In this document: in pieces, positions 5,601 to 47,052 of the stretch
How the letters are laid out: each line of letters opens with the position of its first letter
How positions within the stretch are numbered: position 1 is the stretch's first letter
From: Escherichia phage JeanPiccard
DNA: 47,149 bases
Direction: 5' to 3' (one strand)
Sequence record: MZ501080
The notes under the pieces: model-generated
Database searches by the model: none
What the model was told of the DNA's origin: nothing
Seen by the model: the letters and a program-made list of their open reading frames with translations, nothing else
Made by a program: the position numbers and the translations under genes

Positions 5601-6545
5601 ATGGCCATTAAATTTGATGCAGAACAAGCAAAAATCACCGCTCACCTCGAGCAAATGGGCGTAGAGAAGGCCGATGCCGCCGGTATCTGGACCGTCAATC
5701 AGCTGACCGCCGCTCTGAATCGTGCTTACGAAAAAGAATATGCAGACAATTCTGTTGTTAATATCTTCCCGGTAACCAATGAAATTCCTGGTCACGCTAA
5801 GTATTTCGAATATCCAGAATTTGATGGCGTTGGTATTGCTCAGATTATCGCTGATTACTCTGACGACCTGCCGCTGGTTGATGCTTTCATGACCGAGAAA
5901 CAAGGTAAAGTGTTCCGTTTCGGTAACGCATTCCTGATTTCTACTGATGAAATTAAGGCTGGGGCTGCAACTGGTCAGTCGCTATCAACTCGCAAACAAG
6001 CACTGGCTTTCGAGGCGCACGACAACCTGCTGGATAAACTGGTTTGGTCTGGCTCCACTCCGCACGGTATCGTGAGCGTGTTCGACCAGCCGAACATCAA
6101 CAACGTTGTTGCGACGCCAGACTGGAGTGAACCTCTGAACGCAATCAATGACGTCACTGCGATGATTGATGCAGTTGAGACTTCAACTCATGGTGTCCAT
6201 CATGTGACTGACATTCTGCTTCCGGCATCAGCTCGCCGAGTAATGCAGCGCCTGGTTCCGAACACCACCCTGAGCTACGGTGAGTTGTTCACTCGTAACA
6301 ACCCAGGTCTGACAATTCGTTTCTTGCAGTTCCTGGATAACTACGATGGTGCTGGTGGTAAAGCTGCCCTGGCGTTTGAAAAGAACCCGTTGAACATGTC
6401 TATCGAGATTCCAGAAGCTACCAACGTACTTCCTGGTCAACCGAAAGATTTGCACTTTAAGTACCCAGTAACTTCTAAAGCGACCGGTCTGATTGTTTAT
6501 CGCCCTCTGACGATGGCAGTAATCAAAGGCATTACCTTCGCGTAA
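5601..6545 (+). CDS. major capsid protein
   Basis: 314 aa; position and size; own promoter and strong flanking terminators consistent with very high expression. Confidence 0.8.
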   Translation: MAIKFDAEQAKITAHLEQMGVEKADAAGIWTVNQLTAALNRAYEKEYADNSVVNIFPVTNEIPGHAKYFEYPEFDGVGIAQIIADYSDDLPLVDAFMTEKQGKVFRFGNAFLISTDEIKAGAATGQSLSTRKQALAFEAHDNLLDKLVWSGSTPHGIVSVFDQPNINNVVATPDWSEPLNAINDVTAMIDAVETSTHGVHHVTDILLPASARRVMQRLVPNTTLSYGELFTRNNPGLTIRFLQFLDNYDGAGGKAALAFEKNPLNMSIEIPEATNVLPGQPKDLHFKYPVTSKATGLIVYRPLTMAVIKGITFA

Positions 6546-8530: not shown

Positions 8531-9187
8531 ATGGCTCATTTATCAAACGGCACTCAGGTGTTCGTAGAAGGCTCTCGCGGAGCTGCAATTGACGTAACTG
8601 CAATCTCTAACGCAGTTACCCCTGTTTTAACTGTATCTGACGCATCCGGATTGGTTGTTGGTGATTATCTGCTTTTCACCTCCTCAGCCTCCACGCTTCT
8701 GGCTGATAAGCAAGTTCGCGTAACTGCAATCACTGGCACGTCAGTAACTGTTGAGGGTATTGATACCTCCAGCACCACCAAGTTCCCGGCTGGCTTAACT
8801 GGTGAAGTTGTTAAGATTACTTCCTGGTTCGAAGTTCCGTGCGTTCAGGACGTATCTACTGATGGCGGCGAACAGCAGTTCGTTAACTTCCAGTGTCTTT
8901 CTGATGACCGTGAACAGCAGATTCCGACTTACAAGTCTGCCGTAACAAACACCTTTACCTTTGCTCACGAGTACACTAACCCGGTTTACCCGGTTCTGCG
9001 TAACTATGATGAGTCTGGTCAGGTTGTTGCAATTCGTCTGTTCGTACCTCGCGCTCAGGAAATGCGCTTGCAGTCCGGAACCATCGCTTTCAACGACACC
9101 CCTACCATTGGTGTTAACGAAATCGAGACGGTATCCATCGCAGTATCCATTCGTGGTCGCCTGTCATCTGTGGCAGCTGAAGTTTAA
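8531..9187 (+). CDS. major tail (tube) protein
   Basis: 218 aa; position before chaperone/tape-measure genes; strong terminator downstream. Confidence 0.75.
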   Translation: MAHLSNGTQVFVEGSRGAAIDVTAISNAVTPVLTVSDASGLVVGDYLLFTSSASTLLADKQVRVTAITGTSVTVEGIDTSSTTKFPAGLTGEVVKITSWFEVPCVQDVSTDGGEQQFVNFQCLSDDREQQIPTYKSAVTNTFTFAHEYTNPVYPVLRNYDESGQVVAIRLFVPRAQEMRLQSGTIAFNDTPTIGVNEIETVSIAVSIRGRLSSVAAEV

Positions 9188-45282: not shown

Positions 45283-45522
45283 ATGTTCGGACTAAATGAA
45301 GCGATGTTCAATGCGGTAAAGCGCCAGGCTAAAAAGCTCAACGATAAGTATGAGTCACTAAGCAAGCTGGACCGCAAGAATGATAAGTTGGTTGCTGGTA
45401 TCATAACTGAGATTTGGCAGCCTGTTTCCACAGTTATCAGTAGGGATCGATTTGTGTGGGTATCTGGTTATCTTAAGGGTCGCGTTGGTCATGACGAGAA
45501 TGGGAATAGTCTTTATGAGTGA
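45283..45522 (+). CDS. hypothetical protein
   Basis: 79 aa; ACGAGAG RBS region; preceded by TATAATTACCCCATCAACACAACGAGAG leader. Confidence 0.45.
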   Translation: MFGLNEAMFNAVKRQAKKLNDKYESLSKLDRKNDKLVAGIITEIWQPVSTVISRDRFVWVSGYLKGRVGHDENGNSLYE

Positions 45523-45579
45523 GTTGACAATCTGGTTTATTGCTGGGCTTATTACTTGGGCTTACTTTGGGGTATTGGC

Positions 45580-45807
45580 ATGAGAACATTGAGACAGATT
45601 TTACACGGTTGTAAGAAGCATCATTATGTTTACTTTCGTGATATTAAGTGGTTCGAGGATGCTCACTTTTTAGATGGCTACAAGACAAAGTTAGTATGCA
45701 AGAAATGCATGCACGTGGAGAACAGCATGGTGGATATGATGATTTGCCGCAGCACACTAGACTACATTGCGTATGGAAAGCTCAAACATCCACCAGTTAA
45801 ACCGTAA
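45580..45807 (+). CDS. hypothetical Cys/His-rich protein (possible zinc finger)
   Basis: ORF with CKKHH...CKKCMH...C pattern; start uncertain (track start 45556). Confidence 0.35.
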   Translation: MRTLRQILHGCKKHHYVYFRDIKWFEDAHFLDGYKTKLVCKKCMHVENSMVDMMICRSTLDYIAYGKLKHPPVKP

Positions 45808-46077
45808 TTTTTAGAAAGAGCTTGCATCACTGACTGGAACCATCTAAAATTAACCACGTAGACAAACGAGGCCACCAATTGGCAACGGCGCACGGAGCGC
45901 GCTACAAGGTAAGTCCGTTGCTCATTAAGTAGCGTATGCGGCACATAAGGCCAGTGAGGATAAGGCGAAAACCTCGATAAGTCGGCCCCAAGTCGAATAG
46001 TACGAGTCGATGTAAGGTTGCAGAATACAACCGGTCGTTTCAGCCGACCCCGGAGCCGTAACCGGGACTCATTCAAA

Positions 46078-46155
46078 GCTCTGCTAGCTCAACAGGACAG
46101 CAGCAACGACCTTCTAAGTCGTAGGTTACTGGTTCGAATCCAGTGCGGAGCGCCA
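46078..46155 (+). tRNA. tRNA-Arg(TCT): tRNA-Arg (anticodon UCU), CCA encoded
   Basis: manual cloverleaf: acceptor GCTCTGC/GCGGAGC (one G-U pair), anticodon stem ACGAC/GTCGT with loop CTTCTAA, T-arm ACTGG-TTCGAAT-CCAGT, discriminator G, then CCA. Confidence 0.7.
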
Positions 46156-46186
46156 GATTTAACCAATAACTCTAGGGAGTTTAATT

Positions 46187-46408
46187 ATGAAAACTGTAAC
46201 AATCATCGTAAAAGATTCAGAAACCGGAACCATTCAGAAGTTTAACGCAAAACTCGACTTTGAGCATCAGTGCTTAAAGGGCGTAATCGGTGGCGTATCA
46301 GTAAATGCAAATATTTACGGCTGGCTAATGAATTCAAATAACAAAGATGAAGTCTCTTTGGCTGGTAAAAAATTCGAATTTAAAGAAGCGGCCAATGACG
46401 ACGAGTAG
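46187..46408 (+). CDS. hypothetical protein
   Basis: 73 aa; GGGAG RBS. Confidence 0.45.
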   Translation: MKTVTIIVKDSETGTIQKFNAKLDFEHQCLKGVIGGVSVNANIYGWLMNSNNKDEVSLAGKKFEFKEAANDDE

Positions 46409-46592
46409 ACTGTGGAACGTCAAACTTTCAATCAGATTGATGGGCCGCTCGTGCAAAAATTGCACTCAAGATTATATCGCGTCAGTTGCCGCAACCAGCG
46501 CTGAGGATGCGGTAGCGAAAGTAAAAGAGATGTCGGGTGCTGACCCTGACACTCACAAATTCCTGGTAGCTTACGTTCGTGAGCGAAAGTAA
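46395..46592 (+). CDS. hypothetical protein (start uncertain)
   Basis: ATGA overlap with upstream stop; track start 46347. Confidence 0.4.
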   Translation: MTTSRLWNVKLSIRLMGRSCKNCTQDYIASVAATSAEDAVAKVKEMSGADPDTHKFLVAYVRERK

Positions 46593-46635: not shown

Positions 46636-46660
46636 AGCCCTCGCTTGAGGGCTTTTTTTC
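46636..46660 (+). terminator. rho-independent terminator
   Basis: hairpin AGCCCTCgcttGAGGGCT followed by T7 and conserved CGTCTGTA. Confidence 0.65.
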
Positions 46661-46739
46661 GTCTGTATGTTGACAATAATATATAGGTGCATTAGTATTA
46701 ACTCATCGGGGCGACCCACTAACCAGAAGGAGATTCAAA

Positions 46740-46984: not shown

Positions 46985-47008
46985 AGCCCCTTAATTGGGG
47001 CTTTTTTA
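46985..47008 (+). terminator. rho-independent terminator
   Basis: hairpin AGCCCCttaattGGGGCT followed by T6 and conserved ACGTCTG. Confidence 0.65.
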
Positions 47009-47052
47009 CGTCTGCAGTATGGTATAATCTGACCTCAAGAAAGGAGGATTTA

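What the first reader, a model, noticed from the sequence alone, without database searches (positions are those of the whole stretch)
45808..46155. tRNA-Arg(UCU) preceded by a 270-bp GC-rich, ORF-poor structured region
A well-formed tRNA with anticodon UCU (reads the rare AGA codon) and encoded CCA lies at 46078-46155. The 270 bp upstream (45808-46077) has no convincing ORF; the minus-strand ORF 45762..46076 is Arg/Leu-rich, typical of an artefact. It contains several stem-loops (GCGCACGGAGCGCGC, GGTCGtttcagcCGACC, CCGGagccgtaaCCGG), so it may encode a degraded tRNA or a small structured RNA.
Basis: partly seen in the sequence, partly recalled or inferred. Interest (0 to 1): 0.5.

Follow-up and report, generated by a model that had tools for sequence, protein, structure and literature searches.

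The report
Conserved structured leader RNA before tRNA-Arg
The tRNA is real and ordinary, but the 270 bases before it hold a promoter and a folded RNA leader of unknown role that is shared by T1-like phages, even those without a tRNA, and matches no RNA family in Rfam.

Summary
The window is a complete Rtp-like (Drexlerviridae, Braunvirinae) coliphage genome. The tRNA-Arg(UCU) at 46078-46155 is genuine (ARAGORN; Rfam tRNA model 55.5 bits; CCA encoded) and is annotated in relatives.

The upstream 270 nt is neither a dead tRNA nor an ORF. It holds a sigma-70-type promoter (45822-45850) and a leader RNA of about 220 nt (about 45856-46077). The window sequence alone does not fold better than shuffles (z -0.7). 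Comparison with about 30 distinct relatives does show conserved hairpins: 98.8-99% of cells paired against 14-49% when the pairing is slid, with compensatory changes in P1, P3, P5 and P6. Frequent U:G pairs put the RNA on the + strand.

The same leader design sits at the same place, upstream of the small terminase gene, in other Drexlerviridae subfamilies that have no tRNA. In Braunvirinae and Rogunavirinae several unrelated tRNA-Arg cassettes (UCU or CCU) are inserted between its last hairpin and the next gene's ribosome-binding site.

The leader matches no Rfam family, and I found no paper describing it. Its function is inferred only. RNase P cleavage must free it as a discrete RNA; I favour a protein-binding ncRNA or regulatory leader. 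It is a moderately interesting candidate for a new phage RNA motif.

The parts
45822..45850 (+). Sigma-70-type promoter. The -35 is TTGCAT (45822-27). The 17-nt spacer holds CTGACTGG (45830-37). The -10 is TAAAAT (45845-50). The predicted start is about 45856.
   Evidence: Read from the sequence. The hexamers and spacing are conserved in Braunvirinae (alignment A1). Phage ES has TTGACA-N17-TACATT in register, and other subfamilies have TTGACx-N17-TAnnnT at the syntenic site. The consensus scan did not flag it because the -35 matches only 3 of 6. The transcription start is inferred, not shown.
45856..46077 (+). Leader RNA of about 222 nt, from the predicted start to the RNase P site at the tRNA 5' end.
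   Evidence: Non-coding. Conserved with covariation. No Rfam match. No E. coli genome match.
45857..45870 (+). Conserved single-stranded 5' stretch CGUAGACAAACGAG(G), with an SD-like GAGG.
   Evidence: Conserved across Drexlerviridae as CGTAGACAnAnGAGGC. It resembles the promoter-proximal UTR of the phage's repeated promoter units, CATCGAAACGAnnGAGG. No conserved start codon follows it.
45871..45883 (+). Hairpin P1: GCCA/UGGC with loop CCAAU. It has 5 bp in most relatives.
   Evidence: In alignment A2, 4 of 5 pairs show compensatory changes (GC/CG/AU types). In the family-wide alignment A4, all 4 pairs show compensatory changes and 98.6% of cells are paired, against 19-46% when slid.
45888..45900 (+). 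Hairpin P2: GCGC-ACGGA-GCGC.
   Evidence: Nearly invariant within Braunvirinae, so uninformative there. Other subfamilies have a hairpin of different sequence at the same position, for example GUGAGA/UCUCAC, GCCCC/GGGGC and GUGGC/GCCAC.
45915..45941 (+). Hairpin P3: outer helix CCGU/GCGG, inner helix UGCU/AGCG, loop CAUUAAGU.
   Evidence: In A2 one outer pair switches G:C to A:U on both sides. U:G pairs occur in 18 of 29 and 23 of 29 sequences and alternate with C:G and U:A. These would be A-C mismatches on the minus strand.
45956..45975 (+). Optional hairpin Px: GAGG-AUAAGGCGAAAA-CCUC.
   Evidence: Present in AugustePiccard, JulesPiccard, OzMSK, TR2, A110b (L161), L107 and L143, and absent from the short 167-nt leaders. 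The stem never varies, so there is no covariation evidence.
45976..46032 (+). Variable middle of the leader. In this phage it carries three AGUCG repeats and the hairpin GGUUG-CAGAAUA-CAACC (46016-46032). Most relatives have CCUAGCGCAAAUAGG here instead.
   Evidence: Large indels and module swaps between relatives. This version was seen only in the window.
46034..46048 (+). Hairpin P5: GUCG-UUUCAGC-CGAC.
   Evidence: In A3, two of four pairs switch on both sides (UA to CG, and CG to UA) in about half of 22 sequences.
46049..46066 (+). Hairpin P6: CCCGG-AGCCGUAA-CCGGG.
   Evidence: In A3, the closing pair is CG, GC, UA or GU and a second pair is CG or UA. Across the family I read at least 10 different stems around the conserved loop A-N(1-3)-C-S-G-U-A-A.
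46067..46077 (+). Linker ACUCAUUCAAA.
   Evidence: In phages without a tRNA the same ..AUUCA.. linker runs straight into the SD of the next gene. Here the tRNA follows it.
46078..46155 (+). tRNA-Arg(UCU) with encoded CCA.
   Evidence: ARAGORN. Rfam RF00005 at 55.5 bits. It is 78-81% identical to E. coli tRNA-Arg genes and annotated as tRNA-Arg in relatives.
46187..46592 (+). Downstream small ORFs with no intervening terminator: 46187-46408 (phrog_16862) and about 46410-46592 (phrog_2919, the rtp17 / T1 gp56 family).
   Evidence: ORF list. PHROG hits. No terminator-like site lies between the tRNA and 46636. Co-transcription is inferred.
46636..46653 (+). First intrinsic terminator-like site after the unit.
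   Evidence: Terminator scan: 7-bp stem with 5 GC pairs, followed by a T-run.

Best explanation
The 270 nt upstream of the tRNA is a transcription unit for a structured RNA. Host sigma-70 RNA polymerase starts at the promoter 45822-45850. The nascent RNA, from about 45856, has a single-stranded 5' stretch followed by hairpins P1, P2 and P3. A variable set of hairpin modules comes next, then the adjacent hairpins P5 and P6. P6 carries a conserved CCGUAA-containing loop. The tRNA-Arg follows 11 nt later, and transcription continues into two small ORFs. RNase P cleavage at 46077/46078 matures the tRNA and so releases the leader as a discrete RNA of about 220 nt. Its 3' end would be shielded by P5-P6. 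The leader is the ancestral 5' leader of the operon just upstream of the small terminase gene in all T1-like phages, and tRNA cassettes were inserted behind it. I think it most likely works as a protein-binding RNA through its conserved loops, acting as a stable leader-derived ncRNA rather than by masking the next gene's ribosome-binding site. Shown here: the tRNA, the non-coding status, the conserved helices, the strand, the synteny and the absence from Rfam. Inferred: the transcription start, the RNase P release, the stability of the RNA and its function.
For: The tRNA is real. No conserved ORF lies on either strand. Helices P1, P3, P5 and P6 keep pairing through compensatory changes: 98.8% and 99.0% of cells paired against 14-49% when slid, and 0 of 500 shuffles reach the observed covariation score. 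U:G pairs in P3 fix the + strand. A covariance model of the 5' domain finds one site in the window (101 bits). It also finds the syntenic intergenic site in CJ19 (36 bits, E 7e-7), Shfl1 (E 0.024) and Klebsiella Roth42 (E 0.03), none of which has a tRNA. Family-wide, all 4 pairs of P1 covary, and P6 has at least 10 different stems around one conserved loop. P6 stays under selection in tRNA-bearing phages although the tRNA separates it from the SD, which argues against a simple SD-masking operator. The leader 5' domain is 87-88% identical between phages whose tRNAs are only 70-71% identical. Anticodons are UCU or CCU on different backbones. Lineages appear to differ in how the leader ends. A tRNA follows it here. 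A terminator-like hairpin plus a U4-U7 run follows it in the vojen-like and L311-like lineages. It runs directly into the SD in T1, TLS and CJ19.
Against: No expression data exist for any T1-like phage that I could find. The start site, the processing and the stability are therefore unproven. The window's -35 matches the consensus at only 3 of 6, and the scan did not list the promoter. The window sequence alone does not fold better than shuffles. P2 and Px never vary within Braunvirinae. The sequences are closely related, so cell counts overstate the number of independent events. In Weberviruses the leader is only the 5' stretch plus P1 and P2, directly before the SD. That looks like an ordinary short 5' UTR and fits a cis role better than a trans role. 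No binding protein is identified.
Confidence: 0.5

Rival explanations
1. The leader is a nut- or put-like signal that acts during transcription. The nascent leader RNA, alone or with a phage protein, modifies the RNA polymerase that made it. That polymerase then reads through the terminators between this promoter and the packaging and structural genes.
For: The element lies just downstream of a promoter and just upstream of the terminase and morphogenesis genes in every subfamily examined. Intrinsic terminators follow at 46636 and 46985. According to PMC11447400, the T1 late region is built of terminator-flanked modules. In two lineages the last leader hairpin itself looks like a terminator placed before the first gene. 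P6 remains conserved even though it is not next to an SD.
Against: I saw no boxA-like sequence in the leader. No N- or Q-type antiterminator family appears among 47 non-structural ORFs. Promoter-like sites follow each terminator, so read-through may not be needed. To my knowledge, RNase P cleavage would cut the tether that put-type elements need. No model of nut or put was available to test against.
Confidence: 0.2
2. The leader is an ordinary cis-acting 5' UTR. Its hairpins only stabilise or process the transcript, or tune translation of the gp56-like gene, and it has no life as a separate RNA.
For: The element always heads the same operon. In phages without a tRNA, P6 lies 10-15 nt before the SD with a conserved AUUCA linker. 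Weberviruses have only a 65-nt version. The 5' stretch resembles the phage's standard promoter-proximal UTR.
Against: In this phage the tRNA and an extra ORF lie between the leader and the gp56-like gene. Even so, P5 and P6 still covary. Some relatives carry duplicated P5-P6 modules and extra hairpins, which a simple UTR does not need.
Confidence: 0.2
3. The element works as DNA: a packaging (pac) site, a replication origin or an operator array, rather than as RNA.
For: It lies within about 1.1 kb upstream of the small terminase gene. The CGTAGAC-like and CTGAnnGG motifs at the promoter are conserved.
Against: Helices are kept by compensatory changes. G:U pairs are tolerated only on the + strand and would be A-C on the other strand. 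A properly spaced promoter always precedes the element. CGTAGAC is not enriched in the genome: 6 copies against 3.2 expected.
Confidence: 0.05
4. The region is a degraded tRNA or a decayed ORF with no present function.
For: It lies next to a tRNA, and the site accepts tRNA cassettes. phiEB49 has two tRNAs there, and PCEc3 has a second tRNA annotated.
Against: No tRNA-model or ARAGORN signal appears, even at E<=10. Homologous leaders occur in phages without any tRNA. The compensatory changes show selection on structure. No ORF is conserved.
Confidence: 0.03

Closest known systems
Small stable RNAs co-transcribed with the tRNA cluster of phage T4 (species 1 and 2 RNAs)
   Same: These are phage-encoded structured RNAs of unknown function, made from the same precursor as tRNAs and freed by tRNA-processing enzymes. 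This comes from my own knowledge and was not tested here.
   Different: I had no sequences or models to compare. The T4 RNAs sit inside a tRNA cluster. This leader predates its tRNA and also exists in relatives without a tRNA.
Leader- and spacer-derived sRNAs of bacterial tRNA precursors (for example 3'ETS-leuZ of E. coli)
   Same: A functional RNA is released as a by-product of tRNA maturation (my own knowledge).
   Different: Here the fragment is a 5' leader with its own conserved multi-hairpin fold. No base-pairing target or sponge role has been identified.
Promoter-proximal late-operon leader RNAs of lambdoid phages (the PR' short transcript; StxS sRNA, PMC7547250)
   Same: Both are short structured RNAs made from a promoter upstream of late genes. 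In the vojen-like lineage the leader ends at a terminator-like hairpin.
   Different: No Q-type protein was found. The window's leader has no terminator. There is no sequence relation.
Lambda nut and HK022 put antitermination RNAs
   Same: Hairpins lie just downstream of a promoter and ahead of terminators. P5-P6 are two adjacent hairpins.
   Different: I saw no boxA and no N-type family among the ORFs. Membership could not be tested, because no model was available.
GOLLD and ROOL large RNAs, often next to tRNAs in phages (Rfam)
   Same: Both are structured non-coding RNAs next to tRNA genes in phage genomes.
   Different: The Rfam models give no hit. This element is about 65-370 nt rather than several hundred nt, and it belongs to one family of enterobacterial phages.

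Membership tests
tRNA (Rfam RF00005), for 46078-46155 | The cloverleaf covariance-model score reaches the gathering threshold over the full model. | tested here: met
   55.5 bits against a gathering score of 29, model positions 1-71. One mismatch in the D-stem.
tRNA (Rfam RF00005), for 46078-46155 | An anticodon is assigned by an independent tRNA finder, and the 3' CCA is present. | tested here: met
   ARAGORN calls tRNA-Arg with anticodon tct. CCA is at 46153-46155.
Degraded tRNA or tRNA-like element, for 45808-46077 | A residual match to the tRNA model or to ARAGORN. | tested here: not met
   No second tRNA or tmRNA was found. No tRNA-clan hit appears in 45500-46400 at E<=10 other than the real tRNA.
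Degraded tRNA or tRNA-like element, for 45808-46077 | Homologues occur only next to, or derive from, tRNA genes. | tested here: not met
   The leader model hits syntenic sites in CJ19, Shfl1 and Roth42, which have no tRNA.
Any curated Rfam family (4227 models), for the leader | A covariance-model match at the gathering score. | tested here: not met
   None in the window. None at E<=10 beyond chance-level hits. None in the leaders of 9 relatives.
Protein-coding gene, either strand of 45808-46077 | An ORF conserved in relatives. | tested here: not met
   The longest ORFs in the leaders are 0-38 aa on the + strand and 11-49 aa on the - strand, and indels are not multiples of three. GTG or ATG in the P1 3' arm falls in different frames and is absent in TR2.
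Conserved structured RNA (general test) | Helices are kept by compensatory base changes, above slid and shuffled controls. | tested here: met
   A2: 98.8% of cells paired, 5 pairs with a change on both sides. A3: 99.0% paired, 4 such pairs. A4: 98.6% paired, 4 of 4 pairs. Slid controls give 14-49%. No shuffle out of 500 reaches the observed covariation score.
Intrinsic terminator or attenuator inside the leader | A GC-rich hairpin followed by a U-run. | tested here: not met
   No + strand terminator-like site lies in 45808-46155. One is present in the vojen-like and L311-like relatives.
Lambda-type nut site | A boxA consensus together with a boxB hairpin. | tested here: not met
   I saw no CGCUCUUA-like boxA in the leader, although hairpins are present.
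Lambda-type N or Q antitermination system | A phage-encoded N- or Q-family protein. | tested here: inconclusive
   No such Pfam family appears among 47 non-structural ORFs. N-like proteins are short and diverse, so they could be missed.
HK022 put RNA; T4 species 1 and 2 RNAs | Sequence or structure match to the described RNAs. | not testable with these tools

The most novel reading that the evidence does not exclude
The leader is a family-wide RNA signal that marks the entry into late transcription in T1-like phages. It would be a new class of polymerase-modifying (antitermination or attenuation) RNA, or a protein-titrating RNA built from repeated CCGUAA-loop hairpins. tRNA cassettes would have been recruited as its 3'-end-forming device.
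Probability: 0.15. Interest if true: 0.75.

Novelty: new member of a known kind. Interest (0 to 1): 0.5.

Why it matters
T1-like phages are among the commonest coliphages. They contaminate laboratories and fermenters and are candidates for therapy, yet their gene regulation is almost unstudied. PMC11447400 lists open questions about them. A covarying RNA element at a fixed place just before the packaging genes, in every Drexlerviridae subfamily I sampled, gives a concrete handle on that regulation and a candidate new RNA family. It also shows that the slot behind the element is a hot spot where different tRNA-Arg cassettes (AGA- or AGG-reading) have been swapped in. This fits the phage's heavy use of these codons, which are rare in the host.

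Tried and rejected
- **Rfam:** searches at the gathering score and at E<=10 found nothing but the tRNA.
- **Single-sequence folding:** not significant on either strand.
- **Host origin of the leader:** no match in 5,426 E. coli genomes.
- **Minus-strand 104-aa ORF and tiny + strand ORFs starting in P1:** not conserved, or in different frames.
- **Outer helix GUAG/CUAC closing P1-P2:** broken in TR2, ES, L009, L107 and L143 when the sequences are read, so I dropped it.
- **Pairing of the P2 loop ACGGA with the P3 5' strand, and of ACGG with the CCGU of the P6 loop:** not maintained in TR2 or in T1-type sequences.
- **CsrA-type GGA loops:** the P2 loop ACGGA fits, but P2 loops in other subfamilies lack GGA.
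- **The 5' stretch as a special motif:** it resembles the standard UTR of the phage's repeated promoter units, and CGTAGAC is not enriched.
- **Functions of neighbouring small proteins:** Pfam, PHROGs, NCBIfam and PDB sequence searches were uninformative.
- **Antiterminator proteins:** none found.
- **Literature:** no paper on this leader and no T1-like transcriptome.
- **Metagenome and first IMG/VR pattern scans:** mostly chance hits, with about 14 true metagenome members after filtering.

Full report
**Context.** The window starts with a small terminase gene (1-507), followed by an HNH-like ORF, the large terminase and the portal gene. The region around the finding matches Rtp-like coliphages of Drexlerviridae/Braunvirinae at 82-93% identity. 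Escherichia phage AugustePiccard is the closest. The window is thus a whole phage genome of about 47 kb. The finding lies about 1 kb before the point where the circularly permuted map returns to the terminase genes.

**The tRNA.**
- ARAGORN finds exactly one tRNA in the window: tRNA-Arg, anticodon tct, 46078-46155 +.
- The Rfam tRNA model scores 55.5 bits against a gathering score of 29 over the full model, with one D-stem mismatch.
- CCA is encoded.
- Relatives annotate the same gene as tRNA-Arg. The literature notes one arginyl-tRNA in T1-like phages of this group (abstract of PMC4070988).
- The tRNA is 78-81% identical to E. coli tRNA-Arg genes.
- In a crude set of 72 ORFs, AGA makes up 23% of Arg codons (11.3 per 1000) and AGG 16% (8.0 per 1000). 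To my knowledge this is several-fold above E. coli usage.
- The ORFs 5601-6545 and 8531-9187 use neither codon. I took these to be the capsid and major tail genes but did not check them.
- The tRNA is therefore real, already known, and plausibly compensates for rare codons.

**The upstream 270 nt taken alone.**
- There is no + strand ORF of 25 aa or more.
- The 104-aa minus-strand ORF is not conserved. In 17 of 28 relatives no stop-free run on the minus strand of the leader exceeds 30 codons.
- GC content is 0.485-0.52 against 0.38-0.46 in the flanks.
- Folding energy is no better than shuffled sequence, z -0.70 on + and -0.85 on -.
- No Rfam family matches, even at E<=10.
- On this evidence alone the 'structured region' would be unproven.

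**Comparative evidence within Braunvirinae.** I collected relatives from GenBank phage records, from IMG/VR and from metagenomes (filtered). This gave 29 distinct 5'-domain sequences (alignment A2) and 22 distinct 3'-module sequences (A3).

- Many blast matches begin at query position 308-316. That is exactly after the stop codon of the upstream ORF, so the intergenic element is retained where the flanking gene is not.
- RNAalifold predicts P1, P2 and P3.
- Counting pairs on the stated structure gives 98.8% paired cells in A2 and 99.0% in A3. Sliding the 3' partners gives 14-49%. No shuffle out of 500 reaches the observed covariation score.
- P1 has compensatory changes at 4 of 5 pairs: GCCAC/GUGGC, CCAUC/GAUGG, CUAGC/GCUAG and ACCAC/GUGGU.
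- One outer pair of P3 switches G:C to A:U.
- Two pairs of P5 switch (GGUCG/CGACC against GGCUG/CAGCC).
- The closing pair of P6 is C:G, G:C, U:A or G:U.
- P2 and the optional hairpin Px do not vary, so they are uninformative here.
- U:G pairs in P3 occur in 18 of 29 and 23 of 29 sequences. They would be A-C mismatches on the other strand, so the element is read as + strand RNA.
- The sequences are related, so cell counts exceed the number of independent events.

**Anatomy in the window.**

| Feature | Coordinates | Notes |
|---|---|---|
| Promoter -35 | 45822-27 | TTGCAT |
| Promoter spacer | 45828-44 | 17 nt |
| Promoter -10 | 45845-50 | TAAAAT |
| Predicted start | about 45856 | inferred |
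| 5' single strand | 45857-70 | CGUAGACAAACGAG |
| P1 | 45871-83 | |
| P3 | 45915-41 | |
| Px | 45956-75 | optional module |
| Variable stretch | 45976-46032 | includes hairpin 46016-32 |
| Linker | 46067-77 | ACUCAUUCAAA |
| tRNA-Arg | 46078-46155 | |

The consensus scan did not list the promoter, because its -35 matches only 3 of 6. Its hexamers and spacing are nevertheless conserved. Phage ES has TTGACA-N17-TACATT in the same register.

No terminator lies between the tRNA and the ORFs 46187-46408 and about 46410-46592. The first terminator-like site is at 46636-46653.

The middle of the leader is modular. Short relatives have a 167-nt leader with a CCUAGCGCAAAUAGG hairpin. Others add Px or CCCAnnnGGG hairpins. 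JulesPiccard, A110b (L161) and L143 duplicate the P5-P6 module.

**The tRNA is an exchangeable cassette behind a retained leader.** The same leader precedes at least four tRNA-Arg backbones.
- An argU-like UCU type, as in the window.
- A second UCU type in T145P1 and BEK3.
- A third UCU type, with an extra hairpin, in ACG-M12, IME542 and MM01.
- A CCU type in TR2 and ES.

The leader 5' domain is 87-88% identical between the window and T145P1 or ACG-M12, while their tRNAs are only 70-71% identical.

**The leader is family-wide and older than the tRNA.** I built a covariance model of the 5' domain (R1) and ran it without filters.
- It finds one site in the window, 45851-45945, at 101 bits.
- It also finds the syntenic intergenic site upstream of the small terminase gene in CJ19 (Nouzillyvirus; 36 bits, E 7e-7), Shfl1 (Tunavirus; E 0.024) and Klebsiella phage Roth42 (E 0.03).
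- Matches at the syntenic site in GJL01 and vojen are no better than chance (E 1.9 and 2.4).
- None of these phages has a tRNA there.

Reading these sites, and others recovered from IMG/VR, shows a common design.
- A TTGACx-N17-TAnnnT promoter.
- A transcript that begins CGUAGACAnAnGAGGC.
- Hairpin P1.
- The sequence CAAC.
- Hairpin P2.
- In all lineages but the Weberviruses, a last hairpin whose loop reads A-N(1-3)-C-S-G-U-A-A, followed by ..AUUCA.. and the SD of a small gene of the rtp17 / T1 gp56 family (phrog_2919).

Supporting detail:
- On a family-wide alignment (A4, 18 sequences) all four P1 pairs show compensatory changes, with 98.6% paired against 19-46% when slid.
- P2 has at least seven different stems at the same position.
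- I read at least ten different P6 stems across lineages.
- In Braunvirinae and Rogunavirinae the tRNA sits between AUUCAAA and the SD. UDF157lw has tRNA-Arg(CCU). phiEB49 has tRNA-Arg(CCU) plus a tRNA-Val.
- In the vojen-like and L311-like lineages the last hairpin has an 18-20-nt loop that holds ACCGUAAGA, and it is followed by U4-U7, like a terminator.

**What it is not.**
- It is not a degraded tRNA.
- It is not coding.
- It is not host-derived.
- It is not a member of any Rfam family, including GOLLD, ROOL and the self-cleaving ribozymes.
- A DNA-level role (pac, ori or operator) is unlikely. The reasons are the strand-specific G:U pairs, the helix covariation and the promoter that always precedes it. 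CGTAGAC is also not enriched in the genome.

**How it most likely works.**
- Shown: a non-coding, + strand, covarying multi-hairpin element, at a fixed syntenic position, next to a genuine tRNA.
- Inferred from established knowledge of tRNA maturation: RNase P cuts at 46077/46078, so the leader must separate from the tRNA and from the downstream mRNA. The released molecule of about 220 nt would end in the P5-P6 hairpins, which could protect it from 3' exonucleases.
- P5 and P6 still covary in phages where a tRNA (and here an extra ORF) separates them from the gp56-like gene. A simple SD-masking operator is therefore disfavoured.
- What is common to all lineages is the RNA itself. What differs is how it ends: a tRNA, a terminator-like hairpin, or direct continuation into the SD.
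- The conserved CCGUAA-type loop recurs as GGCGUAAA in Px of relatives, and the P5-P6 module is duplicated in some. This suggests a protein-binding site.

My rough weights for the function are as follows.

| Reading | Weight |
|---|---|
| Leader-derived, protein-binding ncRNA | about 0.35-0.5 |
| Nut/put-like action on RNA polymerase during transcription | about 0.2 |
| Plain stabilising or processing 5' UTR | about 0.2 |
| DNA element | about 0.05 |
| Relic without function | about 0.03 |

No N- or Q-type protein was found among 47 ORFs, though a P22_Cro-like regulator is present. The neighbouring small proteins gave no functional clue.

**Comparison with known systems and novelty.** By my own knowledge, the closest analogues are:
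- the T4 small stable RNAs co-transcribed with tRNAs;
- leader- or spacer-derived sRNAs of bacterial tRNA precursors;
- promoter-proximal late leader RNAs of lambdoid phages, such as StxS (PMC7547250).

I could test membership in none of them. The tests I could run (tRNA clan, all Rfam families, boxA, terminator) were negative.

I found no paper that describes this leader and no transcriptome of a T1-like phage. I therefore class it as a new member of a known kind: a candidate structured leader or ncRNA motif specific to Drexlerviridae. The tRNA itself is already known.

**Verdict.** The conservation and covariation are solid and the element appears undescribed, but its function rests on inference only.

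Noticed in passing
window, genome-wide (e.g. 1809, 4353, 7733, 25955, 33815, 40071, 42860, 45830 on +; 2238, 9923, 29972, 32014 on -): The 8-mers CTGACTGG (12 copies, 1.6-2.4 expected) and CTGATTGG (13 copies, about 3 expected) are among the most frequent in the genome. CTGAYYGG occurs 30 times, on both strands and mostly inside ORFs. One copy sits in the spacer of the leader promoter, and CTGAnnGG precedes the -10 in the syntenic promoters of other subfamilies. I have no explanation for this.
   Followed up: partly
window 13230, 24010, 28096, 32129, 32455, 33283, 35197, 42302, 43646, 44279 (+); 20979, 21727, 38668, 39451, 40602 (-): AATAGCAC is the most frequent 8-mer (16 copies). It heads a repeated promoter-like unit: AATAGCAC-N3-TTGnTAAA-N~17-TATAnT-..CATCGAAACGAnnGAGGA-ATG. 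This matches the unexplained 21-nt intergenic repeat reported for phage TLS (PMC11447400). Its transcribed part resembles the 5' end of the leader.
   Followed up: partly
window 46636-46698 and 46985-47040: The small genes after the tRNA are packaged as terminator-promoter-gene units: terminator 46636-46653, then TTGACA-N17-TAGTAT at 46670-46698, then terminator 46985-47002. PMC11447400 describes T1 'transcriptons' of this kind.
   Followed up: no
L002:1269-1370 (PCEc3) and L166:1785-1861 (phiEB49): Extra tRNA-like genes follow tRNA-Arg in some relatives. The 102-nt 'tRNA-Ile' annotated in PCEc3 is not called by ARAGORN. ARAGORN calls the phiEB49 tRNA-Val(AAC), but it does not reach the Rfam gathering score. 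The slot behind the leader looks like a hot spot for tRNA cassettes.
   Followed up: partly
L006:893-1010 (JulesPiccard), L161, L143: The P5-P6 two-hairpin module is duplicated in tandem, about 70 nt apart, in some relatives. The second copy has the loop AAUCAUAA instead of AGCCGUAA.
   Followed up: partly
L171:1769 (GJL01): The annotated CDS start of GJL01_30 falls inside the leader, in the P6 region. TLS-like relatives place the SD and ATG about 30 nt further downstream, so this is probably a mis-annotated start.
   Followed up: no
window 5601-6545 and 8531-9187: These two ORFs contain no AGA or AGG codons, although the two codons make up about 39% of Arg codons genome-wide in a crude ORF set. 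I took the ORFs to be the capsid and major tail genes without checking them.
   Followed up: partly
window 46187-46408: The 73-aa ORF right after the tRNA gives a sub-threshold Pfam hit to RNase P/MRP subunit p29 (E 0.073, 13.5 bits against a cut-off of 27). This is most likely noise, but it is curious next to an RNase P substrate.
   Followed up: no
phage records MG065688.1 (L161) and PP134917.1: Records named 'Campylobacter phage A110b' and 'Pseudomonas phage PsgS01F' are Rtp-like coliphage genomes and carry the same leader. The host assignments look doubtful.
   Followed up: no
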